Source of the DNA: Vicinamibacterales bacterium
GTDB taxonomy: Bacteria > Acidobacteriota > Vicinamibacteria > Vicinamibacterales > JAMQPK01
NCBI GenBank assembly: GCA_035937795.1
Contig: DASZHO010000051.1
Location: 35,290 to 99,289 of the forward strand
Direction of reading: 5' to 3'
DNA: 64,000 nt
This document shows positions 37,606-46,053 of this stretch, one piece after another. The position numbers were made by a program, and so were the translations under genes. Position 1 is the stretch's first letter, and each line of letters opens with the position of its first letter. The notes under the pieces are model-generated. The model was not told the DNA's origin, did not search any database, and worked only from the letters and a program-made list of their open reading frames with translations.

Positions 37606-38090
37606 GTCTTCATTGTGCACCCGGGCGCATGAACGAACCATGACGTTCGCTTCGGCCCGGAAGTGACTAAAATAGCCCTCTCCACCCTGTGCAGGCGATG
37701 AGCGCAACAACCTGTGCGCATTGCGGCGGAACGATCGCGCTTCCCCACCGGTCCGATGTCGATTGCTTCCGCGAGCTCTAGGGCGAAGTGGCGGCAGCGT
37801 GAGGCGGCTTCGTGCGCTCACCAGGCGCAAGGGCCAGCTGATGCGCGCCCGGGTCCGGGCCCGCCAGCGGGAGATAGCCGGCCGGGCGAAAGAGGCGTCG
37901 ACACCAAGGAAGCCGCTCGCCAGCGTGCTTGGCCCACAGAATCGCGGAACGTCTCCTTTAGCGGCCAGGAAGTTTAGACAAAGGGAGAGAAAAAGCTGGG
38001 GGCTGACGGCGAGTAGCTCAAATGCTTGGAATTCCAGCCTCTCCGGCTGGAGCCGAACTTGCTTGGTGTACGCTTACCGGAGGTTCCCAT

Positions 38091-38819
38091 ATGCGGTATC
38101 TCGGCCTCGCTTTCGCGCTGCTGCTTGCTCTTCCCCGCGCGAGCGGCGCGCAATCCCCCGATTTTCTGTTTGGAGCACCCCACGGCACGGTTGCCGTCCG
38201 CAGCGGCTGGATGATGGCGCGTGCGGGCAGCGACATCTATACTTTCGTGCAGAGTCAGCTGACGGTGAACAAGAAGGATTTCAACTCGCCGGTTTTCGGC
38301 CTCGACCTCGATTTCGCGATTGCGCCGCGGATGACGGCGGTGGCCGGCTTCGATCTCAGCGGCTCGAGCACGAACTCCGAGTACCGCAACCTGGTCGATA
38401 ACCAACGGCTGCCCATCAAGCAGACCACGTCGCTGCACGAGCAGAACATCAGCGGCAGCCTGAAATTCGCGCTGACGCCGCGCGGACGGGAAATCAGCCA
38501 GCACGCGTGGATTCCCTCGGCTGTCACGCCGTTCGTGGGCGCCGGCGGCGGCGTGATGCACTACGGCTTCACGCAGAACGGCGACTTCGTCGACTTCACA
38601 GACAACTCGGTGTTCACGCACACATATCAGTCGAGCGGTTGGGCGCCGAGCGCGCATGTGTTCGGCGGCGTCGACGTGAAGGCGTCGCGGCGGATTTATT
38701 TCAGCGCCGAGGCGCGCTATCTCTGGTCCCACGCCAAGCTCGGCAACGATTTTTCAGGATTCAATCCGATCGACCTTGCCGGCTTCAGGATGACAGGCGG
38801 CATTCGCTACATGTTTTAG
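38091..38819 (+). CDS. Outer-membrane beta-barrel protein
   Basis: The start is set at MRYLGLAFALLLALPRASGAQ. The sequence has alternating beta-strand patterning and the C-terminal beta-signal GGIRYMF. Confidence 0.55.
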   Translation: MRYLGLAFALLLALPRASGAQSPDFLFGAPHGTVAVRSGWMMARAGSDIYTFVQSQLTVNKKDFNSPVFGLDLDFAIAPRMTAVAGFDLSGSSTNSEYRNLVDNQRLPIKQTTSLHEQNISGSLKFALTPRGREISQHAWIPSAVTPFVGAGGGVMHYGFTQNGDFVDFTDNSVFTHTYQSSGWAPSAHVFGGVDVKASRRIYFSAEARYLWSHAKLGNDFSGFNPIDLAGFRMTGGIRYMF

Positions 38820-38832
38820 GGTGGAGACGACG

Positions 38833-40260
38833 ATGAAAACCATCATCGGCATATTCGCGGCCGCGATCGCGCTCGGCGCGATGCCTGCGGGCGCGCAGGG
38901 TCCAGCGACGTCAGTGTCGAGCGGCGCGGGGGCTCGCGCAGCAGGCCCACGTTTCGACGCACGGTGGACGCCTTATCTCGGATGCTGGCGGCTGCTTCAG
39001 GAAAATGTGCGCGCCGAAGGCGCGGGGGCGCCGCCAGCCGCAACGCCCGCAGGACCGACGATCACGGTGTGCGTGGCGCCGTCGGGCACAACGAGCGGCG
39101 TGGCGATGACGACGTTCGCCGACGGCAACAAGATTCTTGAACAGACCGCGGTGGCGGACGGCGCGCCGCGCGCGCTGGCCGAATCCGGCTGCACCGGCAC
39201 GCAAACCAGCGAATGGTCCAGCGACGGCTTGAGGCTGTTCACGCACGTCGATCTCGCGTGCAACGATCGTCCGGCGCAGACCCTCTCGGGTCTCACGCTG
39301 TTCGCGAAGGGCCCGGCGTGGATCGACATCCAAGCCACCACCGCGGACGAGCAGCAAGTGCGAATCCGCCGGTACGCGCGCGCCTCCGACCAGCCTGACG
39401 GGCTTGCCGCGCTCCCGGCTGACGCCATCACACGCGCAATGGTCGACGCGCAGGCGGCGAGCGTCCATCGGTTGAGCCAGAACGATATCGTGGAGGCCAG
39501 CAAGAAGACAGCGCCGCAGGCGGTGGAAGCGGCGATCGTCGAAACGCAGGCGCGCTTCGCGCTCGATAGCCGCACGTTGAAACAACTGGCCGACGCCGGC
39601 GTTTCGCCAAACGTGATTGATTTGATGGTCGGGCAGTCGTTTCCGTCGCACTTCCGCGTCGAGCGGCCGATCACGCTCCCGCCATCGCCGGTCTCCGCGT
39701 CGACGGGCACGGCGGCGGCAGCCGGATCGGCGCAATATCCAGCGGCGCAATATCCCACGCCATATCCCTACTCTCCGTATGGGGCCTACGCGTACGATCC
39801 CTTCTACTACTACTCCTACTACTACTCTCCGTTTGCCTACCCGTACTATTGGGGCAATCCCGGCTACTATGGCGGGCCGATCTACTTCATCGATAACGGC
39901 GGGACAATCATCGCCCCGAACGGATCTGGCAGCGGCGGGGGCGGCGCCGCGGCCAGCGACAACGGCCAAGGACAGGTGATCAACGGACGCGGCTACACGC
40001 GCGTGCATTCGGGTTCGGGGGGGGATGCGGCGCAGCCGACGGCGCACGTCGTAACGGCAACGTCGCCCAAAACGGTTCGGGGGGCTTCAGGCTCGGGCGC
40101 CGCCTCATCTTCGAGCTCCGGCTCGAGCTCCTCTGGATCGAGCTCTTCCGGTTCATCGGGGTCGTCATCTTCGGGGTCTTCAGGGGGAGCGTCGGTTTCC
40201 GGCAGCGGCTACTCGAGCGGTGGCTCGGGCGGCGGTGGACGGACCGCGCAGCCGAAGTAG
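38833..40260 (+). CDS. Secreted protein with a globular N-terminal part, an extreme Tyr/Pro-rich segment and a Ser/Gly-rich tail
   Basis: ATG 38833 lies 7 nt after a GGAG. Signal peptide MKTIIGIFAAAIALGAMPAGAQG. Tyr-rich segment YPAAQYPTPYPYSPYGAYAYDPFYYYSYYYSPFAYPYYWGNPGYYGGPIYF. Tail SGSGAASSSSSGSSSSGSSSSGSSGSSSSGSSGG...GGSGGGG. Confidence 0.55.
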   Translation: MKTIIGIFAAAIALGAMPAGAQGPATSVSSGAGARAAGPRFDARWTPYLGCWRLLQENVRAEGAGAPPAATPAGPTITVCVAPSGTTSGVAMTTFADGNKILEQTAVADGAPRALAESGCTGTQTSEWSSDGLRLFTHVDLACNDRPAQTLSGLTLFAKGPAWIDIQATTADEQQVRIRRYARASDQPDGLAALPADAITRAMVDAQAASVHRLSQNDIVEASKKTAPQAVEAAIVETQARFALDSRTLKQLADAGVSPNVIDLMVGQSFPSHFRVERPITLPPSPVSASTGTAAAAGSAQYPAAQYPTPYPYSPYGAYAYDPFYYYSYYYSPFAYPYYWGNPGYYGGPIYFIDNGGTIIAPNGSGSGGGGAAASDNGQGQVINGRGYTRVHSGSGGDAAQPTAHVVTATSPKTVRGASGSGAASSSSSGSSSSGSSSSGSSGSSSSGSSGGASVSGSGYSSGGSGGGGRTAQPK

Positions 40261-40276: not shown

Positions 40277-40798
40277 GTGAAATCCATCGTCCCATTGCTG
40301 ACAGCCGGAATGCTCACTGCAGCGATGAACACTACGAGCCTAGCCAAGACCGGCGGAGTCGGGATCTATGCCATCGTCGACAAGATCGCGTTCGAGCCCG
40401 ACAAGACCTCTCCGGAGCGAGTTCGGATTGACGGTACGTTCGTCGTCCCGATCCGCATGTCGAGCGGTGATTACGCTCCTCCGAAGCGTGGGTTTCTATA
40501 CTTCAAAACAGCAGCGGGACGGGAACACGCTGCCAGAAGAGACTGGGCAGCTCTGACATCGGTGGCCGGCACCGGCGAGGTCATCGGATTTGCGTTCTAC
40601 TGGGTACCCGACGCTCACACGGGTGGCAATCCGCACCATACCCTCGAGGTCACGGTCCATCGCAACGGTGCTGCTGCCTCACCGGACGACTATCCGCTGT
40701 CGTTCGCCGAGGTTCTCCCCAAGGAGAATGCAATTGTGAAAGCCGGAAACCCGGCGTTCGACACCGTCGTCTTAAAGCAACTCAAAGGAGTTGGCTAG
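40277..40798 (+). CDS. Hypothetical secreted protein
   Basis: GTG start preceded by GAGGAGG. Signal-like N-terminus (MKSIVPLLTAGMLTAAMNTTSLA). I recognise no family. Confidence 0.4.
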   Translation: MKSIVPLLTAGMLTAAMNTTSLAKTGGVGIYAIVDKIAFEPDKTSPERVRIDGTFVVPIRMSSGDYAPPKRGFLYFKTAAGREHAARRDWAALTSVAGTGEVIGFAFYWVPDAHTGGNPHHTLEVTVHRNGAAASPDDYPLSFAEVLPKENAIVKAGNPAFDTVVLKQLKGVG

Positions 40799-41466
40799 GC
40801 CCGGAGACGCCGGCGCGCGGGACGTTCGACGTCGAGCGGGATCATTCCGTGATAGGCCGCCACCAGCTCCGTGCGGCTGCGACAGCCAACCTTCCTGAAG
40901 ATGTGCATCAGGTGCACCTTGACGGTCGCCTCGCTGATCGCCAATCGATCGGCGAGCTCCTTATTCGCGAAGCCCGCCGCGGCGTGCCGAAGCACTTCCC
41001 GTTCGCGTGCGCTGAGGTACTGCCAGCCGGCGAGGCGCTGGCCTGCCTCGGCATCGGGCCTGCATTTCTTCCACGCGGCGGCGACGATGTGCCGTGGCGC
41101 CCAGATCTTCCCCTGGTGGACGAGCGTGATCGCCTGAACCACTTCTTTCGCCCGCGCCCGCTGGTACAGGATGCCGCGCGCGCCCGCGATGAGGGCGTCG
41201 GTCGCCAACGGCCCATCATCCGGCAAGGCGAGCACGAGGATCTTCGGCTCCACCGCCGAGCAGAATCGCTGGCACAACGCGAGCGCTCCGCCCATGCGTC
41301 CGTCGAGCAGCAGGATCTCGGGACGGCCGGCGGGCACGGTCGCCAGCAGCGCGTCTTTGTCGCGAACGTCGACGAACTGGAGCGATGCCTCGGAGTTGAT
41401 GATGCGCGCGAGGCCCTCCGAAAACAGACGAGTGTCGCTCAGGACGCCGACACGCACTGCTGACAT
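40795..41466 (-). CDS. LuxR/FixJ-type response-regulator-like transcription factor with an atypical receiver
   Basis: The start is set at MSAVRVGVLSD. The C-terminal HTH is LSAREREVLRHAAAGFANKELADRLAISEATVKVHLMHIFRKVG. The receiver-like N-terminus retains LLLDGRM, but the acidic pair near the N-terminus reads SD rather than DD/ED. Confidence 0.7.
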   Translation of the reverse strand: MSAVRVGVLSDTRLFSEGLARIINSEASLQFVDVRDKDALLATVPAGRPEILLLDGRMGGALALCQRFCSAVEPKILVLALPDDGPLATDALIAGARGILYQRARAKEVVQAITLVHQGKIWAPRHIVAAAWKKCRPDAEAGQRLAGWQYLSAREREVLRHAAAGFANKELADRLAISEATVKVHLMHIFRKVGCRSRTELVAAYHGMIPLDVERPARRRLRA

Positions 41467-41657
41467 CGAGCACCAACCCTTATGGGAGCGCAATCAGGAC
41501 CCCCAGCAGAATGATGATAGGCAGCGCAGCCGATCCGGGTCAATCAACAAAGCACGAGAATCGGGTTCGCGTCTCAGCCGTACGTCGTACTCCGTTCGTC
41601 TAGCAGACAAGCGCGAGACCGACCGCCATACTACCGCGCGAACTCTCGACTCGCGCC

Positions 41658-43175
41658 ATGAACACGCTCGGAACGGTCGCCAACTTCGCAGGCCCGCTCG
41701 ACGCACGGGATCGGGAAACGATTGTTGCGCTTCGCCGTGTCCTCGATGCCCACGGTTTCGCCACTGCCGCCGTCCCCGCCGCCATGGGGGGCACATTGCG
41801 GTCGGATTTCCACCTGCGTGTCGACCTGCCGCTGTACCTCCGCCGCCTCGCCGGGCCGGCGCCCATCAACACCCTGATCAAACTGTTCGTGCTCGACCAG
41901 TGGGTGGAGGAGAGCGCCGCGCGCCGCGCGCTGGCGCCCCTCGACCTCGGCGACGTCCGCGCGCTGGGCCTCATCGAGAAGGACGAGGAGAGGGGCGTGC
42001 GGGCCCGGGTGCGTCTCTCCGGCTACCGTGATCTCGTGCTCGCGCACGACCGGTACGACGAGCAGCTTCGCGTGCTTCAACCCGACCACGTGCTCGACGT
42101 CAATCCGACCAGCGTCACGCTCGCGAACCTCACCGTCCGCCGCCACGTGCGATCGGCGCTCGACGTCGGCACCGGGTGCGGCGTCCTGGCGCTGCTCGCG
42201 GCGCGCCACGCCGACCGCGTGGTCGCGACCGACACGAACGCGCGGGCGCTCAACCTCGCGTCGTTCAACGGCCAGCTGAACGGCATCGAGCACATCGAAT
42301 GGCGGATGGGAAGCCTGTTCGAGCCGGTCGTGGGCTGCCGATTCGATCTGATTGTCTGCAATCCTCCCTACGTCATCTCTCCAGATTCGCAGTACGTATT
42401 CCGCGACAGCGGCCGGAAGGGCGACGCGATCTGCGGCGAGATCGTCCGCCGCCTGCCGGATCATCTCGAGGAGGGCGGCTTTGCCTCGATGCTGTGCAAC
42501 TGGACGATGGCGCGCGACGAAGAGTGGCCGTCGCCGCTCCGCCGTTGGGTCGAGGGAACGGGGTGCGACGCCTGGCTGCTGTGCAGCACCACGCACGACC
42601 CGCTCACCTATGCCGCGTTCTGGAATCGAACCCAGGAGCGGGAACGATACGAGCAAGCGCTGGACCGCTGGGTCGCCTACTGTCGCGAGCTGAACGTCGA
42701 CGCGATCGGACTCGGCGCCGTCATCCTCCGCCGGAAGGCTGGCGGGCCCGTCTGGGTTCGCACCAGCAGCCTGCCCGAGAGCCCCATCGACACGTGCGAC
42801 TCGCAGATTCAGCGCGTGTTCCGCGCGGAGGACTATCTCGCCTCGATTCGTACCGATGCGGCGTTGCTTGCGCACACGTTCGTCGTGGCCGACGACCACC
42901 GGGTGATCCAGACGCTGGCGCCGACAGACGATGCCTACGAGTCGGTGAACGCGGAGATCGAGCTGACGGGCGGCTTCAGGACGCGAGGCTCGGTCGACGC
43001 CTACACCGTGCGCCTGCTCGCGCGATGCGACGGGCGCCGTTCCCTCAACGAGATCGTGAGCGAACTGGCGTGGGGGGGCGGGCCGCCCCGCGATCAGATA
43101 GCTACGGCCTCTGCGGCGATCGTCAAGAGGCTCGTTGCGGCCGGATTCCTGATTCCCGCCGATGAACGCTCGTAA
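41658..43175 (+). CDS. Class I SAM-dependent methyltransferase (NPPY type) with an extended N-terminal domain and a PqqD/RRE-like C-terminal domain
   Basis: SAM motif I (ALDVGTGCGVLALLAA), then DLIVCNPPYV, the NPPY motif of N-directed HemK/PrmC-like methyltransferases. The last 60 aa (VDAYTVRLLARCDGRRSLNEIVSELA...AIVKRLVAAGFLIP) resemble PqqD-type winged-helix domains. Confidence 0.7.
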   Translation: MNTLGTVANFAGPLDARDRETIVALRRVLDAHGFATAAVPAAMGGTLRSDFHLRVDLPLYLRRLAGPAPINTLIKLFVLDQWVEESAARRALAPLDLGDVRALGLIEKDEERGVRARVRLSGYRDLVLAHDRYDEQLRVLQPDHVLDVNPTSVTLANLTVRRHVRSALDVGTGCGVLALLAARHADRVVATDTNARALNLASFNGQLNGIEHIEWRMGSLFEPVVGCRFDLIVCNPPYVISPDSQYVFRDSGRKGDAICGEIVRRLPDHLEEGGFASMLCNWTMARDEEWPSPLRRWVEGTGCDAWLLCSTTHDPLTYAAFWNRTQERERYEQALDRWVAYCRELNVDAIGLGAVILRRKAGGPVWVRTSSLPESPIDTCDSQIQRVFRAEDYLASIRTDAALLAHTFVVADDHRVIQTLAPTDDAYESVNAEIELTGGFRTRGSVDAYTVRLLARCDGRRSLNEIVSELAWGGGPPRDQIATASAAIVKRLVAAGFLIPADERS

Positions 43176-43226
43176 CACGGCCGCCAGGTGGACAGTGAAG
43201 TGGATCGTGAGAGAGGAGGCACCTGC

Positions 43227-43763
43227 ATGGAAATCGGTTTGAAGAGCCTGAGCAGCACGAAGGGTACGGGGCGGCGCACACTGCTGCAGCGCGGGCTTGC
43301 GCTCATTGGCGGCGTCGCCGCTGTCGGGACCGGCGCGCGGTGGGCGACGCGCGAGGTGGGCGCGTCGGCGTTGCGCCGGGGTCCGACGCTGACCGTGTAC
43401 GGCCGCAAGCGGCCCGTGGCGGGCGACAACGAGGCGCGGATCATGGCTTTCGGGGAGCTGCTGGATGCTCCCGACGGCCGGACGATCGGCGAGTTCCACA
43501 CGAATTGCTTCTGCCTGTCGACCCCGCTCGGCCTCCAACCGACTGCGGGTTCGAATCTCGAATTTCACGTCATGCAGTTCAAGGACGGCACGCTGTTCGG
43601 CCTGCGCGGGGGCTCTCCGGGCAGCGACGCGCCGATTCCGAGCGCGGTCATCGGCGGCACGGCGCGCTACGCGGGCGCGTCCGGCAGTCTCGTCGAGCGT
43701 CCGCTCGGCGCCGGCGCGCGCGGTCACGATCTCGTGGAATTTGTCATTACGTTCGCCAGTTGA
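43227..43763 (+). CDS. TAT-signal small beta-barrel protein, dirigent / allene-oxide-cyclase-barrel-like
   Basis: ATG 43227 is preceded by GAGAGGAGG. Twin-arginine signal (GRRTLLQRGLALIGGVAAVG). The body (LTVYG...FGELLDAPDGRTIGEFHTNCF...FKDGTLFGLRGG...AVIGGTARYAGASGSL) matches the dirigent-like pattern ending in aivGGTG.y.GA.G. Confidence 0.5.
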   Translation: MEIGLKSLSSTKGTGRRTLLQRGLALIGGVAAVGTGARWATREVGASALRRGPTLTVYGRKRPVAGDNEARIMAFGELLDAPDGRTIGEFHTNCFCLSTPLGLQPTAGSNLEFHVMQFKDGTLFGLRGGSPGSDAPIPSAVIGGTARYAGASGSLVERPLGAGARGHDLVEFVITFAS

Positions 43764-43774
43764 GGAGGGGGCAG

Positions 43775-44239
43775 ATGGCATACGACGCATTCTTGAAGCT
43801 CGAGGGCATTGAAGGAGAGTCGGCCGATCACAAGCACAAGGGCGAGATCGAGGTGCTCAGCTTTTCGTGGGGCGTCTCGAACGCGACCGCGTCGGCGACC
43901 GGCGGCGGTGGAGCGGGCAAGACCTCCGTCCACGATTTCTCGATCGTGAAGTTCATCGACCAGGCGTCACCGATCCTCTTCCAGAAATGCTGCGAGGGCG
44001 ACACCATCGGCGAGGGCCTGTTCACGCTGGTCGATCGCGGCACCGGTCTCGGGTTCTACAAGGTCCAGTTCGAGAGCGTCCTCATTTCCAGCCTTCAGCC
44101 GACAGGCTCCCCCGGCGGCAGCGCCGCCATGGAGCAGCTCACGTTCCGGTTCTCGATGGTCGACATCAGCGCGTCCGACCTGAGGGGCAACACGACGAAC
44201 ACCATTCGTTGCTCGATGGGCGGCGTGAACGGCCAGTAA
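43775..44239 (+). CDS. hcp: Hcp-family (type VI secretion tube-like) protein, orphan
   Basis: ATG 43775 is preceded by GAGGAGGGG. MAYDAFLKLEGIEGESADHKHKGEIEVLSFSWGVSNA...GGGGAGKTSVHDFSIVKFIDQASPILFQKCCEG is the canonical Hcp1 N-terminal signature. Length is 154 aa. Confidence 0.8.
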   Translation: MAYDAFLKLEGIEGESADHKHKGEIEVLSFSWGVSNATASATGGGGAGKTSVHDFSIVKFIDQASPILFQKCCEGDTIGEGLFTLVDRGTGLGFYKVQFESVLISSLQPTGSPGGSAAMEQLTFRFSMVDISASDLRGNTTNTIRCSMGGVNGQ

Positions 44240-44415
44240 GACGTCACCACGTTCGAGTGTCGGCAGAATCCAGGGCTCAGAAGCACCCCTTGGTCCCGCG
44301 GTGCGACGACCCGAGCTGGCCCTGGGTTCTTCCTCATGCTCACTGCGCCGCCGTTTCCCCGCGCGCCGGTGGTTGGCATCTGCGGGTGCCAGATTCCGAG
44401 GCAATCACGCTTTGA

Positions 44416-44661
44416 ATGAAACTCATCATCGTCGACCGCTCAAAATTTGCGACGTATCAGCGGCTGCTGGACAAATTCTCTGACGACCTCAATGTGAGGG
44501 TCATCTGGGATCGTCGCAAGAACCAAATACGGCAACGCGCAGTGCCGCACACGCCCGAGCGCCGTTCCGGCGACCGCCGCCGCCTCGCGAAGCCGTGGAA
44601 CGGGAAAGACTACATCGTCATCAATGCGGTCGTTGAACGGCGGCGCGAGGGCGTGGGATGA
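44416..44661 (+). CDS. Small Arg-rich hypothetical protein (81 aa)
   Basis: MKLIIVDRSKFATYQRLLDKFSDDLNVRVIWDRRKNQIRQRAVPHTPERRSGDRRRL... The first about 35 aa look like the start of a receiver fold, followed by ERR/DRR-rich basic repeats. I recall similar small ORFs in Acidobacteria and Deltaproteobacteria but know no function for them. Confidence 0.45.
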   Translation: MKLIIVDRSKFATYQRLLDKFSDDLNVRVIWDRRKNQIRQRAVPHTPERRSGDRRRLAKPWNGKDYIVINAVVERRREGVG

Positions 44662-44683
44662 ATCCGGACCTGAAGGATGGGAC

Positions 44684-44881
44684 GTGCTAGTACGAATCGT
44701 CCGGCGACCGTTCGGCTTTGCCCACGGCGTGTCCCTCAGACGGTTCAGGCCGGGACAGACCTACGATCTAGATCCTTCGGTGGCCGATTACCTCATCGTG
44801 CAGGGGTTCGCCAGAATGGAGATGAGGCGAGAGGAGCGATCGATCGGGGCGCGCCCGGGGGATCGCCGCAAGATGCGCTGA
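44684..44881 (+). CDS. Small hypothetical protein (65 aa) with a basic tail
   Basis: GTG 44684 is preceded by GAAGGATGGGA. The sequence is VLVRIVRRPFGFAHGVSLRRFRPGQTYDLDPSVADYLIVQGFARMEMRREERS... It lies 22 nt after the previous small ORF. Confidence 0.4.
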   Translation: MLVRIVRRPFGFAHGVSLRRFRPGQTYDLDPSVADYLIVQGFARMEMRREERSIGARPGDRRKMR

Positions 44882-45724
44882 TCAGGCGATCACGTCGACG
44901 CGGCAGATCCATCCAGTGCTGGGACTCCTGTCCCTCTCCCATCCCGGATGGATACCTGCGTCGCAGAAATAGAGCTTTTCGTTCAGCAGCGCCAGGCCGT
45001 GCGGATCCGGATCGCCAACTGCCAACTGAATGGTCTCGAGCGTGGCGCCGGTTTTAGCGTCCATTTTCATGATTCGCGCCGCATCGTCTCCGTCCACCAC
45101 CCACATCGCTCCGTGGTCCCAGGCCAGCCCGTGCGGGCGCGCCATCTGAAATGGATGCGCGATGATCGGCTGAAACGTTTCCGCATCAACCTCCATCAGG
45201 GCCTTCAACCGGCCCGCCGCCATCCAGAGCTTGCCGTCCACATACTCGATGCCGGTCATCGACCCGCCGCCGAGCGGCACCTCGTGGCGCTTCACAAGTT
45301 TGCCGTTCATGTCCAACTGGACAATTTCCGGCGCTGTCCGATCGATTTTCACCGGCCGATCGAACTGCTGGGCGCCGTTGGCCGACATCCAGATGTAGCC
45401 GCCGCCCACGGCGATGCCGCTGCAATTGTGGCATTCGGTATCCAGCGCTCGCAGCACTTTGCCGTCCAGATCCATCAGGATCGCGCGATCGGTCACCTGT
45501 TCGCCAATCCAGAGTCCCTCGGCGCTTGCGTCGAGCGCGTTGGGATGGCCGTCGGGCGTCTTGAAGAGTTTCGCGATAGTGGCCTTGCGGACTGGCGGCG
45601 GAGGCGAAGTGCGAGCGGGCGCGCGCACTTCGCCGGGCGCAAGCGGCCGGCCCTGGCCGAACGAGGGCGCTGAACCCACGGCGACGCCCGCGCCGATCGA
45701 CATCAAGAAATCTCTTCGCTTCAT
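44882..45724 (-). CDS. TAT-signal beta-propeller protein
   Basis: The start is set at MKRRDFLMSIGAGVAVGSAPSFG. Repeated blade-like segments are present (GLWIGEQ.., GGGYIWMSANG, GKLWMAAG, GAMWVVDGD, KLYFCDAG). The exact family is uncertain (glutaminyl cyclase-like or NHL/YncE-like). Confidence 0.5.
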   Translation of the reverse strand: MKRRDFLMSIGAGVAVGSAPSFGQGRPLAPGEVRAPARTSPPPPVRKATIAKLFKTPDGHPNALDASAEGLWIGEQVTDRAILMDLDGKVLRALDTECHNCSGIAVGGGYIWMSANGAQQFDRPVKIDRTAPEIVQLDMNGKLVKRHEVPLGGGSMTGIEYVDGKLWMAAGRLKALMEVDAETFQPIIAHPFQMARPHGLAWDHGAMWVVDGDDAARIMKMDAKTGATLETIQLAVGDPDPHGLALLNEKLYFCDAGIHPGWERDRSPSTGWICRVDVIA

Positions 45725-45756
45725 AGACAGGACGTTGTCCGAGCGCCGGAGTTTTG

Positions 45757-46053
45757 TCAAGGCGCCTCTTCGATTTCGTCGATCGGACAGGTGAGGCGCG
45801 GACGGCGCGGGTCGCTGATATCAAGCTGGTTCCAGCGCGCCACGAGCTTCCTGCGCCTGCCGAACAAGGCCGCCGTCAGCGACCAGCGCTCGAGGAGCGC
45901 ACCGGAGCCGAGCAAGTACGCCACGATCTGATGCTCGCCGTCGCGGCACTCGGAGCGCACGTCTATGACATTGGCGACCGTCCGGCCGTCCGAGGCGACG
46001 ACGCGGCTGCCGATCAAGTCTTCAAGGCGGATCGTGCGCGGCACAGCGGTCAT
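45757..46053 (-). CDS. PRC-barrel-like small protein
   Basis: The start is set at MTAVPRTIRLEDLIGSRVVASDGRTVANVIDVR, a PRC-barrel-like G..V...dG..vG.v.dv pattern. The ATGA overlaps the upstream gene stop. Confidence 0.4.
   Translation of the reverse strand: MTAVPRTIRLEDLIGSRVVASDGRTVANVIDVRSECRDGEHQIVAYLLGSGALLERWSLTAALFGRRRKLVARWNQLDISDPRRPRLTCPIDEIEEAP

What the first reader, a model, noticed from the sequence alone, without database searches (positions are those of the whole stretch)
41658..44881. Co-directional module: RRE-tailed NPPY methyltransferase, TAT-exported dirigent-like barrel, orphan Hcp and two small Arg-rich proteins
Five tightly spaced plus-strand genes (gaps of 51, 11, 176 and 22 nt) combine parts that do not belong to any system I know. 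The first is a 505-aa SAM methyltransferase with an N-directed NPPY motif. The second is a twin-arginine-signal beta-barrel of the dirigent/allene-oxide-cyclase type. The third is a canonical Hcp, and the last two are small basic proteins of 81 and 65 aa. Hcp normally sits with or near TssB/C, VgrG, PAAR and TssM, and none of these occurs anywhere in this 64-kb window. An Hcp ring 11 nt downstream of a TAT-exported protein is therefore odd. The module is flanked by a divergent atypical LuxR-type regulator. It may be an uncharacterised Hcp-dependent or Hcp-repurposed module, for example a chaperone or carrier for the neighbouring small proteins.
Basis: partly seen in the sequence, partly recalled or inferred. 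Interest (0 to 1): 0.7.

Follow-up and report, generated by a model that had tools for sequence, protein, structure and literature searches.

The report
Conserved Hcp, barrel, methyltransferase gene trio
Three of the five flagged genes form a cassette conserved across four bacterial phyla: a type VI secretion tube protein (Hcp) tightly coupled to an exported small-molecule-binding barrel, plus an N-methyltransferase whose relatives sit inside type VI secretion gene clusters, which suggests Hcp may also work outside the classical secretion machine.

Summary
All five ORFs, their spacings, the NPPY motif, the twin-arginine signal and the Hcp are real, and no other T6SS core gene was found among the window ORFs scanned. 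Only three genes form a conserved unit. In 31 of 39 species-representative loci (Vicinamibacteria, Actinomycetota, Chloroflexota, Dormiibacterota) a barrel gene is followed directly by a canonical Hcp gene, 11 nt overlap to 37 nt gap where boundaries were clean. The methyltransferase lies beside 17 of these pairs, in four different arrangements, with unrelated flanks. The two small basic ORFs and the LuxR regulator occur only in near-identical contigs and are not part of it. The barrel model is closest to pyocyanin demethylase PodA, then Diels-Alderases and dirigent proteins. The methyltransferase model matches GenN and the peptide Asn N-methyltransferase AerE and has a weakly PqqD-like tail. 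Its family lies next to at least one T6SS core marker in 16 of 56 informative metagenome loci and beside barrel and/or Hcp in 34 more. I read this as a T6SS-derived carrier, partner and modifier cassette. Whether it still needs a T6SS is open; the universal TAT signal and the presence in phyla generally regarded as monoderm argue against it. No description was found in the literature searched.

The parts
41658..43175 (+). N-methyltransferase, 505 aa. It has an N-terminal helical domain (DUF7059), a Rossmann SAM-methyltransferase core with NPPY, a middle beta/alpha domain and a C-terminal DUF7782 domain.
   Evidence: Pfam. AF2 model with pLDDT 90 and pTM 0.89. Foldseek top hits are GenN (E 6e-22) and AerE (E 5e-20), against PrmC at 3e-10. 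Syntenic with barrel-Hcp in 17 genome loci and beside a barrel in 31 metagenome loci.
41751..42005 (+). DUF7059 N-terminal domain of the methyltransferase (residues 32-116)
   Evidence: PF23186, E 1.1e-9. Helical in the model.
42360..42371 (+). NPPY catalytic motif (residues 235-238). N-P-P is invariant and the fourth residue is Y or F across phyla.
   Evidence: Alignment A4: N235, P236 and P237 invariant, with Y or F at 238.
42819..43157 (+). DUF7782 C-terminal domain (residues 388-500), weakly PqqD/RRE-like
   Evidence: PF25004, E 8e-11, and PqqD, E 0.05. TIGR03859, E 0.007. Profile A5 against PDB: PqqD 3g2b at 0.029, 5sxy at 0.17, 5vrd at 1.4. PF05402 is precomputed on homologues P0300 and P0332. 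In the model the domain is several strands followed by a helical bundle.
43227..43763 (+). TAT-signal beta-barrel protein, 178 aa (mature about 130 aa, roughly 14 kDa), PodA / dirigent / AOC fold
   Evidence: AF2 model: 8 strands, pLDDT of most blocks of the mature domain about 90. Foldseek: PodA 5k21 at E 7e-6, then Cyc15/AbyU Diels-Alderases, dirigent proteins and AOC. Profile against PDB sequences: PodA at 1.2e-3 and dirigent at 5.7e-3. The family has 509 representatives among 1.84 billion.
43227..43370 (+). Twin-arginine signal peptide (residues 1-48: G-R-R-T-L-L-Q-R-G-L-A-L, h-region, A-S-A)
   Evidence: R16, R17 and Q21 are invariant in 49 homologues. RR-x-hydrophobic signals are kept in the Actinomycetota, Chloroflexota and Dormiibacterota copies. 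This segment has low pLDDT and precedes the first strand, E54.
43775..44239 (+). Canonical Hcp (TssD-family), 154 aa, no signal peptide, 11 nt after the barrel stop codon
   Evidence: PF05638, E 9e-33. PDB Hcp1 5xeu at 1e-26 and PA0085 at 6e-22. Directly downstream of the barrel in 31 of 39 genome loci.
44416..44881 (+). Two small basic ORFs (81 aa; 65 or 85 aa). They are adjacent but NOT part of the conserved cassette.
   Evidence: Found only in near-identical contigs L001-L005. Their 90% clusters have 4 and 2 members. No Pfam, NCBIfam, PADLOC or PHROG hit.
40795..41493 (-). Divergent NarL/LuxR-type response regulator. It is adjacent but NOT conserved with the cassette.
   Evidence: GerE, E 4e-19, with a sub-threshold receiver domain. 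Absent next to the diverged cassettes in L009, L011 and L012. By tblastn of the window protein it is found only in near-identical contigs.

Best explanation
The real unit is a three-gene cassette derived from type VI secretion: an Hcp, a partner protein and a modifying enzyme.

Shown:
- A canonical Hcp is encoded directly behind, and often overlapping, a small PodA/dirigent-fold barrel. That barrel carries a twin-arginine export signal in the loci of all four phyla whose start could be read.
- The cassette's GenN/AerE-type N-methyltransferase belongs to a family that otherwise lies next to T6SS core genes (for example tssC-hcp-MT-tssE-tssF), or beside an hcp alone.

Inferred:
1. Hcp and the barrel are made in fixed proportion and form a complex. 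Hcp would act as the ring-shaped chaperone or carrier for the folded barrel of about 14 kDa, which is within the size of known Hcp-lumen cargo.
2. The methyltransferase N-methylates a protein amide or amine on Hcp or on the Hcp-bound partner. Its PqqD-like tail would serve as the peptide-docking element.
3. The barrel's destination is outside the cytoplasm, through the TAT pathway. Hcp either releases it to TAT or is co-exported with it as a signal-less 'hitchhiker'.
4. Once outside, the barrel binds or transforms a small hydrophobic or aromatic molecule, as solved members of its fold class do.

I consider it slightly more likely than not that the cassette works without a T6SS. It persists, with the TAT signal intact, in Actinomycetota, Chloroflexota and Dormiibacterota. 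The small basic ORFs and the LuxR regulator are local neighbours, not components.
For: Synteny:
- The order MT, barrel, Hcp is kept in four diverged genomes (barrel identity 75, 56, 51 and 47%) with unrelated flanks.
- In 39 GTDB species-representative loci, 31 have Hcp directly after the barrel. Spacing runs from an 11-nt overlap to a 37-nt gap where ORF boundaries were clean. The loci span four phyla, some on contigs of 0.2-1.8 Mb.
- An all-against-all neighbour clustering found no other gene family shared across phyla.
- The MT is adjacent in 17 of the 31 loci, in four different arrangements. This pattern points to selection for proximity rather than shared descent of one operon.

Methyltransferase family context. 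Of 56 informative metagenome loci, 31 have the barrel (with Hcp where the flank allows), 16 have at least one T6SS core marker beside the MT (10 have two or more), 3 have Hcp alone and 6 have neither. TssA, TssB, TssC, TssE, TssF, VgrG and a ClpV-type (ClpB-family) AAA+ ATPase were confirmed by Pfam.

Variants that keep Hcp but change the partner:
- SnoaL-Hcp-MT in L056.
- A VgrG-like gene followed by the barrel in an Actinomycetota MAG, L035.

Folds:
- Barrel.
- Methyltransferase.
- PqqD-like tail.

TAT signal conservation.

Literature:
- Hcp rings carry cargo, with candidate lumen-sized partners of 10-30 kDa (PMC8262886).
- Hcp protomers assemble stepwise around the cargo (PMC13323088).
- Monoderm genomes lacked diderm secretion systems in a survey (PMC4793230).
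Against: - No physical interaction was tested.
- T6SS cargo is loaded in the cytoplasm, so a TAT signal on an Hcp cargo has no precedent.
- By my own recollection of Hcp and TAT dimensions (not tested here), an Hcp hexamer of about 85 Å would be at or above the usual TAT size limit, which makes co-export uncertain.
- No Asn, Gln or Lys is invariant across phyla in Hcp or the barrel, so no methylation site can be named.
- In a neighbour-joining tree, barrel-linked Hcps do not separate from T6SS-linked Hcps. Nothing in the sequence marks them as repurposed.
- The MT is missing from the fetched flanks (up to 10 kb, several much shorter) of 14 barrel-Hcp pairs.
- Whole genomes of the carriers were not scanned for T6SS or other contractile systems.
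- A Vicinamibacteraceae isolate is listed with a T6SS sheath protein.
Confidence: 0.42

Rival explanations
1. The cassette is an ordinary satellite ('orphan') hcp island of a T6SS encoded elsewhere in this Vicinamibacterales genome. Hcp loads the barrel as lumen cargo and the T6SS fires it. The methyltransferase is a T6SS accessory factor. The copies in other phyla are relics, or serve contractile systems not yet recognised there.
For: - The Hcp is canonical and nests among T6SS-linked Hcps in a tree.
- The methyltransferase family lies next to T6SS core genes in 16 metagenome loci. A distant homologue sits between tssK and tssB in Solibacter-like loci.
- A barrel homologue follows a VgrG-like gene in L035.
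- The mature barrel is about 14 kDa and suits the Hcp lumen.
- Luteitalea pratensis (Vicinamibacteraceae) is listed with a T6SS sheath protein.
Against: - The barrel keeps a twin-arginine signal in the loci of every phylum whose start could be read. That would send it to the periplasm before cytoplasmic loading.
- There is no immunity-like gene, and no T6SS marker within the flanks of any barrel locus.
- The cassette is intact and translationally coupled in 26 species-level genomes of Actinomycetota, Chloroflexota and Dormiibacterota. Of these, Actinomycetota and Chloroflexota are generally regarded as monoderm, and monoderm genomes lacked T6SS loci in a survey.
Confidence: 0.3
2. The cassette is a small-molecule pathway. 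The methyltransferase N-methylates a metabolite, as GenN does. The exported barrel is an enzyme or binding protein for a related aromatic compound, as PodA, Diels-Alderases and dirigent proteins are. Hcp is only a scaffold or stabiliser.
For: - GenN is the best structural and sequence match of the methyltransferase.
- The best-matching solved structures to the barrel are proteins described as acting on small molecules, and PodA removes an N-methyl group (PodA chemistry from my own knowledge).
- In L056 a SnoaL-like protein, another small-molecule fold, replaces the barrel.
Against: - This does not explain why Hcp is the invariant partner, why relatives of the methyltransferase lie next to T6SS core genes, or why they sit beside hcp alone.
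- No other biosynthetic gene is conserved nearby.
- The PqqD-like tail, and AerE as a near-equal match, point to a peptide or protein substrate.
Confidence: 0.12
3. The cassette is a RiPP-like system. The RRE-type tail of the methyltransferase recruits a short precursor peptide, possibly one of the small ORFs, for amide N-methylation.
For: - AerE, a RiPP Asn N-methyltransferase, is a top structural match.
- The C-terminal domain is weakly PqqD-like.
Against: - No conserved short ORF accompanies the cassette in other genomes.
- The 81-aa and 65-aa ORFs are strain-specific.
- No protease, transporter or other tailoring enzyme is conserved nearby.
Confidence: 0.05
4. This is the five-gene module as first proposed. 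Hcp serves as chaperone or carrier for the 81-aa and 65-aa basic proteins, under the divergent LuxR regulator.
For: The five genes are co-directional and closely spaced. The two small ORFs are called as genes by both JGI and NCBI.
Against: - The small ORFs and the regulator were found only in contigs whose matching genes are 95-100% identical.
- They are absent beside the diverged cassette copies whose downstream genes were called, including relatives with 75% barrel identity, and tblastn finds them in none of the genome-scan loci.
- A 176-nt gap separates them from hcp.
Confidence: 0.03
5. The methyltransferase is an N6-adenine DNA methyltransferase of a defence or restriction-type system, and it lies next to hcp by chance.
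For: NPPY is also the motif of N6-adenine DNA methyltransferases. The catalytic core matches PADLOC mad2 at E 2e-18.
Against: - The PADLOC match covers only the core, residues 161-301.
- Structural matches of about 370-390 aligned columns are to GenN and AerE, not to DNA methyltransferases.
- There is no nuclease or specificity partner.
- The recurrent linkage to Hcp and T6SS genes is not chance.
Confidence: 0.02

Closest known systems
T6SS auxiliary hcp-effector islands (Hcp as chaperone and carrier of small lumen cargo, for example Hcp1 with Tse1-Tse4 in P. aeruginosa)
   Same: A canonical Hcp is encoded next to a small protein (about 14 kDa mature) of a size that fits the ring lumen. The third gene belongs to a family found next to T6SS core genes. 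One variant pairs the same barrel family with a VgrG-like gene.
   Different: The partner lies upstream of hcp and carries a conserved twin-arginine export signal. There is no immunity gene and no T6SS gene within the flanks (up to 10 kb). The cassette occurs in Actinomycetota, Chloroflexota and Dormiibacterota, where T6SS is not known. The partner's fold is that of ligand-binding enzymes rather than typical toxins.
Pyocyanin demethylase PodA (PDB 5k21) and the dirigent / allene-oxide-cyclase / AbyU-type Diels-Alderase barrel superfamily
   Same: An eight-stranded barrel. PodA is the best hit by both fold and profile. The GGTGR(Y/F)AGA motif resembles the dirigent signature as I recall it (not tested here), and some homologues hit Pfam Dirigent (PF03018).
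   Different: Only about 20% identity to PodA, and the window protein itself is below every Pfam threshold. PodA catalytic residues were not checked because the paper is not held. No member of this superfamily that I know of, and none in the searches run here, is linked to Hcp.
GenN (gentamicin 3''-N-methyltransferase) and AerE (aeronamide Asn N-methyltransferase); more distantly HemK/PrmC N5-glutamine methyltransferases
   Same: The N-terminal helical domain, the Rossmann core with NPPY and the following domain align over about 370-390 columns (TM-score normalised to the target 0.73-0.80). All are N-directed methyltransferases.
   Different: It has an extra C-terminal DUF7782 (PqqD-like) domain of about 115 aa. 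Identity is only 18-23%. Scores are far below the NCBIfam PrmC and HemK cut-offs. The genomic context is Hcp and T6SS genes, not aminoglycoside or proteusin clusters.
TAT 'hitchhiker' complexes (for example hydrogenase HybO/HybC and DMSO reductase DmsA/DmsB; from my own knowledge)
   Same: A subunit with a signal is encoded next to a signal-less partner. The genes are translationally coupled, which is consistent with assembly before export.
   Different: This is purely an analogy. No cofactor-containing redox enzyme is involved, no TAT chaperone gene is present, and an Hcp hexamer may be too wide for TAT.

Membership tests
Type VI secretion system (locus) | Presence of the core genes tssA-C, tssE-G, tssK-M, clpV and vgrG together with hcp | tested here: not met
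   Pfam on 30 window ORFs, including the 20 largest, and the JGI calls within 10 kb show no core gene except hcp. Not every window gene was scanned, and the rest of the genome was not available.
Hcp / TssD (PF05638) | Sequence match above the curated threshold | tested here: met
   113.8 bits against a cut-off of 23.5. E 1e-26 to solved Hcp1 5xeu. The score for NCBIfam TIGR03344 is 55.0, just under its cut-off of 58.9.
Hcp / TssD (PF05638) | Hexameric ring that stacks into a tube inside a TssBC sheath | not testable with these tools
TAT substrate | N-terminal twin-arginine motif, then a hydrophobic h-region, then an A-x-A cleavage site | tested here: met
   G-R-R-T-L-L-Q-R-G-L-A-L at residues 15-26, an h-region to about residue 36, and A-S-A at 46-48. 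RR is invariant in 49 homologues and kept across phyla. No dedicated predictor was run.
TAT substrate | Export depends on TatABC | not testable with these tools
   This needs an experiment.
Dirigent / AOC / PodA barrel superfamily | Eight-stranded antiparallel barrel fold | tested here: met
   Model with 8 strands. Foldseek probability 1.00 to PodA, dirigent proteins, AOC and AbyU-type cyclases.
Dirigent (PF03018) | Pfam match above threshold | tested here: not met
   The window protein has no Pfam hit. Only 3 of the 120 listed homologues carry a precomputed PF03018 hit.
PodA pyocyanin demethylase | Conserved catalytic residues and activity on phenazines | not tested
   The primary paper is not held. 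Only overall similarity was measured.
HemK/PrmC N5-glutamine methyltransferase | NPPY motif and an equivalog-level score | tested here: not met
   NPPY is present. TIGR03534 scores 63.7 against a cut-off of 199.1, and TIGR00536 scores 55.4 against 115.5. PrmC is a far weaker structural match than GenN or AerE.
GenN/AerE-like N-methyltransferases | Shared multi-domain fold beyond the Rossmann core | tested here: met
   Foldseek E 6e-22 and 5e-20, with 368-394 aligned columns and TM-score normalised to the target of 0.73-0.80. phmmer E 6e-15 and 2e-10.
RRE / PqqD-like peptide-recognition domain | Significant match to PqqD, and a three-strand plus three-helix winged-helix fold | tested here: inconclusive
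   All matches are sub-threshold but consistent: Pfam 0.05, TIGR03859 0.007, and PDB PqqD chains at 0.029, 0.17 and 1.4. The model shows strands followed by three helices. A domain-only fold search was not possible.
RiPP biosynthetic cluster | A conserved precursor peptide gene next to the modifying enzyme | tested here: not met
   No conserved small ORF was found among ORFs of at least 60 aa across the loci. The local small ORFs are strain-specific.

The most novel reading that the evidence does not exclude
In at least four phyla, including lineages generally regarded as monoderm that are not known to have a T6SS, a canonical Hcp has been repurposed. It would act as the T6SS-independent partner of a TAT-exported PodA-like ligand-binding barrel, either as a cytoplasmic ring chaperone or as a co-exported hitchhiker subunit. 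A dedicated protein N-methyltransferase inherited from T6SS loci would service it. That would make this a previously unrecognised Hcp-based export or carrier system.
Probability: 0.35. Interest if true: 0.85.

Novelty: new variant of a known kind. Interest (0 to 1): 0.72.

Why it matters
Hcp is studied almost entirely as the tube and cargo carrier of the T6SS of diderm bacteria. An Hcp-centred cassette that is conserved and translationally coupled in Actinomycetota, Chloroflexota and Dormiibacterota, with a partner that carries a TAT signal, would mean one of two things. Either these phyla hide an unrecognised Hcp-using apparatus, or Hcp has a second function independent of the T6SS.

A second point stands on its own. 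A GenN/AerE-like N-methyltransferase with a peptide-binding-type tail recurs next to T6SS core genes. This suggests a post-translational methylation step in type VI secretion that I did not find described, and it is directly testable by mass spectrometry of Hcp.

The barrel's similarity to PodA also suggests an exported activity on redox-active aromatic metabolites in soil bacteria.

Tried and rejected
- **Five-gene operon.** Rejected: the small ORFs and the regulator are not syntenic elsewhere.
- **AF2 test of a barrel-Hcp complex.** I built a fused chain with a paired alignment (A3).
- **Genome scan with the 49-sequence barrel alignment.** The alignment was too diverse, so I repeated the scan with 12 sequences.
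- **A separate clade for barrel-linked Hcps.** Not seen in a neighbour-joining tree. The tree carries no support values, so it is only indicative.
- **A conserved Asn, Gln or Lys as methyl acceptor in Hcp or the barrel.** None is invariant across phyla.
- **Other conserved neighbours.** None across phyla. There are only lineage-specific flanks among the Chloroflexota and Dormiibacterota loci.
- **Phage origin.** The barrel has no relatives in IMG/VR. The Hcp matches one PHROG of unknown function.
- **Defence-system membership.** Only a core-domain match to PADLOC mad2.
- **Literature.** No paper found for DUF7059 or DUF7782, for Hcp with dirigent, for Hcp or T6SS with a methyltransferase, for Hcp in monoderm phyla, for Hcp with TAT (only an analogy), or for T6SS-independent Hcp.
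- **PodA paper.** Not held.
- **afdb50 fold library.** Unavailable.
- **Terminator and promoter scans.** They gave nothing informative for the operon structure.

Full report
**What is in the window**

The window is Vicinamibacterales (Acidobacteriota) DNA. The barrel protein is identical to NCBI VGZ27_05740 from a Vicinamibacterales MAG, and the Hcp and the two small ORFs are VGZ27-series proteins on a 127,770-bp contig.

The five plus-strand ORFs and their spacings of 51, 11, 176 and 22 nt are exactly as reported. Both the barrel and the Hcp start codons follow strong Shine-Dalgarno sequences.

Pfam and NCBIfam results:
- Gene 1 has DUF7059 + MTS + DUF7782 and sub-threshold HemK/PrmC-type matches.
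- Gene 2 has no hit.
- Gene 3 matches T6SS_HCP at E 9e-33.
- The two small ORFs have no hit.
- The divergent regulator matches GerE and has a weak receiver domain.

Pfam on 30 window ORFs, including the 20 largest, shows an AddAB-like helicase-nuclease pair, RND efflux genes, an ABC exporter, a Ser/Thr kinase, a SpoIIE phosphatase and others, but no T6SS core component. Not every window gene was scanned. The JGI gene calls for the same contig also show none within 10 kb. The 'RRE tail' is the one weakly supported element.

**Which genes belong together**

Exact-match look-ups returned only near-identical contigs. I therefore collected barrel homologues and examined diverged ones on long contigs.

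In four genomes, with barrel identity of 75, 56, 51 and 47%, the order methyltransferase, barrel, Hcp is kept while every flanking gene differs. The small ORFs and the LuxR regulator are absent.

A scan of one genome per GTDB species with a 12-sequence barrel alignment gave 39 loci. Using tblastn and ORF mapping, plus Pfam on three divergent cases, 31 of these loci have a PF05638-type Hcp directly downstream of the barrel on the same strand. Spacing runs from an 11-nt overlap to a 37-nt gap where ORF boundaries were clean.

The other eight loci break down as follows:
- Two end at the contig edge.
- One has a VgrG-like gene instead.
- One was not resolved.
- Four are weak barrel hits, probably other dirigent-like proteins.

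By record title the 31 loci come from Vicinamibacteria, Actinomycetota (Gaiellales, Actinomycetes, Nanopelagicales), Chloroflexota and Dormiibacterota. Several lie on contigs of 0.2-1.8 Mb, so mis-binning is unlikely.

The methyltransferase is adjacent in 17 of the 31 loci, in four arrangements:
- upstream on the same strand;
- upstream and divergent;
- downstream on the same strand;
- downstream and convergent.

An all-against-all clustering of neighbouring ORFs found no other family shared across phyla. The conserved unit is therefore barrel-Hcp, usually with the methyltransferase. The two small basic ORFs have 90%-identity clusters of 4 and 2 members. They and the regulator are local neighbours.

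**The barrel**

In 49 homologues the N-terminus G-R-R-T-L-L-Q-R-G-L-A-L is nearly invariant. The copies from other phyla keep RR-x-hydrophobic signals followed by Ala/Gly-rich hydrophobic stretches. This is the TAT signal pattern.

The AF2 model has pLDDT of about 90 in most blocks of the mature domain and is an eight-stranded barrel. Foldseek against the PDB ranks the hits in this order:
1. Pyocyanin demethylase PodA (5k21, E 7e-6).
2. The Diels-Alderases Cyc15b and Cyc15.
3. Plant dirigent proteins.
4. Allene oxide cyclases, interleaved with the cyclases PloI4 and AbyU.

A sequence profile independently finds PodA (E 1.2e-3) and a dirigent domain (E 5.7e-3). The best-matching solved structures are proteins described as acting on small molecules.

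The family is small, with 509 representatives at E up to 1e-3 among 1.84 billion proteins. No relative was found in IMG/VR viral contigs.

**The Hcp**

By sequence it is a canonical Hcp: E 1e-26 to a solved Hcp1 and 6e-22 to PA0085. It has the usual MA-x-D-x-FLK-x-x-G-I-x-GES start and no signal peptide.

In a neighbour-joining tree, Hcps from true T6SS loci nest among the barrel-linked ones. Nothing in the sequence marks the latter as a separate paralogue. The Vicinamibacteria copies replace the usual C-terminal GWDxxxN with a Cys-containing tail.

**The methyltransferase**

Its AF2 model is confident, with pLDDT 90 and pTM 0.89. The best structural matches are:
- the aminoglycoside N-methyltransferase GenN (E 6e-22);
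- the RiPP Asn side-chain N-methyltransferase AerE (E 5e-20).

Both align over about 370-390 columns. PrmC follows far behind at 3e-10. Sequence searches agree.

Across four phyla the SAM-binding motif and N-P-P-(Y/F)-V-x-S-P are conserved. The extra C-terminal domain, DUF7782, gives only sub-threshold matches, but they are mutually consistent and all point to PqqD.

**The decisive context result**

A metagenome scan with the methyltransferase alignment returned 80 loci. After HMM and marker searches, 56 were informative:

| Context beside the methyltransferase | Loci |
|---|---|
| Barrel, with Hcp where the flank allows | 31 |
| At least one T6SS core marker (10 with two or more) | 16 |
| Hcp alone, directly adjacent | 3 |
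| Neither | 6 |

Pfam confirmed TssA, TssB, TssC, TssE, TssF, VgrG and a ClpV-type (ClpB-family) AAA+ ATPase in these loci. In L119 the order of the Pfam-confirmed genes is tssA, tssC, hcp, MT, tssE, tssF, with a tssB match (59% identity) between tssA and tssC. In L099 and L105 the methyltransferase lies between the tssA-tssB-tssC-hcp arm and clpV-vgrG.

Contexts of Hcp homologues add two more pieces:
- Solibacter-like T6SS loci carry a distant homologue of the methyltransferase (29% identity over residues 69-363; HPPY in place of NPPY) between tssK and tssB.
- In locus L056 a SnoaL-like protein replaces the barrel in front of Hcp, with the methyltransferase convergent.

In an Actinomycetota MAG (L035), a barrel homologue with an RR signal starts 4 nt after an orphan VgrG-like gene, among housekeeping genes.

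Hcp, or another T6SS spike or tube protein, is therefore the common denominator. The methyltransferase family is an accessory gene of T6SS lineage.

**Interpretation**

Two facts are established in the literature. Hcp rings chaperone and carry cargo, with candidate lumen-sized partners of 10-30 kDa (PMC8262886). Hcp protomers assemble stepwise around the cargo (PMC13323088).

A barrel of about 14 kDa whose gene is translationally coupled to hcp fits that picture. The methyltransferase would then plausibly modify Hcp or its bound partner. These steps are inferred.

Two things do not fit a classical T6SS island:
- The TAT signal is conserved in the loci of every phylum whose start could be read, whereas T6SS cargo is loaded in the cytoplasm.
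- The cassette is intact in phyla not known to have a T6SS. A survey found no diderm-type secretion loci in monoderm genomes (PMC4793230).

I therefore give a slight edge (0.42 against 0.30) to a T6SS-independent mode. In that mode Hcp hands the folded barrel to TAT, or travels with it. The rival is a satellite island serving a T6SS elsewhere. For this organism the satellite reading remains quite possible, because a Vicinamibacteraceae isolate is listed with a T6SS sheath protein (PMC9230969).

I rate four further readings as less likely: a pure small-molecule pathway, a RiPP system, a DNA methyltransferase or defence system (only a core match to PADLOC mad2), and the original five-gene model.

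**Novelty**

I found no paper on DUF7059 or DUF7782, on Hcp linked to dirigent- or PodA-like proteins, on T6SS-associated methyltransferases of this type, or on Hcp in monoderm phyla. The library does not cover subscription journals, so this absence is not proof.

All components belong to known families. The combination and its phyletic spread are new. I class it as a new variant of a known kind (Hcp with a partner), with a substantial chance of being more than that.

**Limits**

- No interaction, export or methylation was tested.
- Whole genomes could not be scanned for T6SS genes.
- The NJ tree has no support values.
- TAT assignment rests on pattern and conservation, not on a dedicated predictor.
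- PodA catalytic residues were not compared.

Noticed in passing
L055:457-3563 and L057:945-2504 (Solibacter-like Acidobacteria T6SS loci): In L055 two methyltransferase genes sit between tssK and tssB. One is a 519-aa MTS/PrmA-type enzyme with HPPY instead of NPPY, 29% identical to the window methyltransferase; L057 carries this gene too. The other is a 491-aa PKMT-like protein lysine methyltransferase. This suggests protein methylation may be part of some T6SSs.
   Followed up: partly
L119:3735-9538; L099:73-12874; L105; L108; L111; L130: The DUF7059-MTS-DUF7782 methyltransferase family lies next to canonical T6SS core genes (tssC-hcp-MT-tssE-tssF, or MT-clpV-vgrG). I found no description of such an accessory gene.
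   Followed up: yes
L102:1887-2666, L106, L116, L135: A second, 259-aa PrmA/Methyltransf_16 (lysine-methyltransferase-like) gene lies next to the large methyltransferase in four loci. Two of them (L102, L116) carry a ClpV match.
   Followed up: no
L099:4756-5817 (also L100, L101, L102): A 353-aa protein with an eCIS_core (PF13699, formerly DUF4157) domain lies directly upstream of the methyltransferase inside a T6SS cluster. It may be an effector.
   Followed up: no
L035:8504-10459 (Actinomycetota MAG, 52-kb contig): An orphan VgrG-like gene (Phage_GPD + Phage_base_V, 492 aa) ends 4 nt before a barrel homologue with an RR signal. The flanks are biotin carboxylase, biotin ligase and a solute-binding protein, and no other contractile-system gene is nearby.
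   Followed up: partly
L056:5154-7924: This is a variant cassette. A 127-aa unknown protein and a 142-aa SnoaL-like protein precede Hcp in place of the barrel, and the methyltransferase (45% identical) is convergent.
   Followed up: partly
window 43775-44239 and the Vicinamibacteria loci L009-L019: The Vicinamibacteria cassette Hcps lack the usual C-terminal GWDxxxN motif and end in a variable tail containing a Cys. Most also have a CC pair at residues 71-72, which some T6SS-linked Hcps share.
   Followed up: no
window 44882-45760 (-): A 292-aa beta-propeller-like protein (weak Vgb_lyase match) has its own twin-arginine-type start, MKRRDFLMSIGAG. Its stop codon abuts the end of the 65/85-aa ORF with no gap, in convergent orientation.
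   Followed up: no
window 38821-40260 (+): A 479-aa protein with a signal-like N-terminus has a long Tyr/Pro-rich and then Ser/Gly-rich low-complexity tail and no Pfam match. It is flanked by two further no-hit ORFs (38022-38819 and 40277-40798) that recur in the near-identical contigs.
   Followed up: no
window 44416-44881 (+): The two small Arg-rich ORFs overlap by 38 nt if the second starts at ATG 44624 (JGI call, 85 aa). They are separated by 22 nt if it starts at GTG 44684 (NCBI call, 65 aa). No family match was found in four libraries, so whether they are real genes is unresolved.
   Followed up: partly
window 43775-44239: The Hcp matches PHROG 27303 (phage protein family of unknown function) at E 3e-25. 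Hcp-like proteins therefore also occur in phage genomes.
   Followed up: no
L114:104-5344 and L135:715-4157: Some metagenome loci appear to carry two paralogues of the large methyltransferase, and no Hcp or barrel lies within reach. The paralogues were recognised by eye from their N-terminal sequences, not by a search.
   Followed up: no
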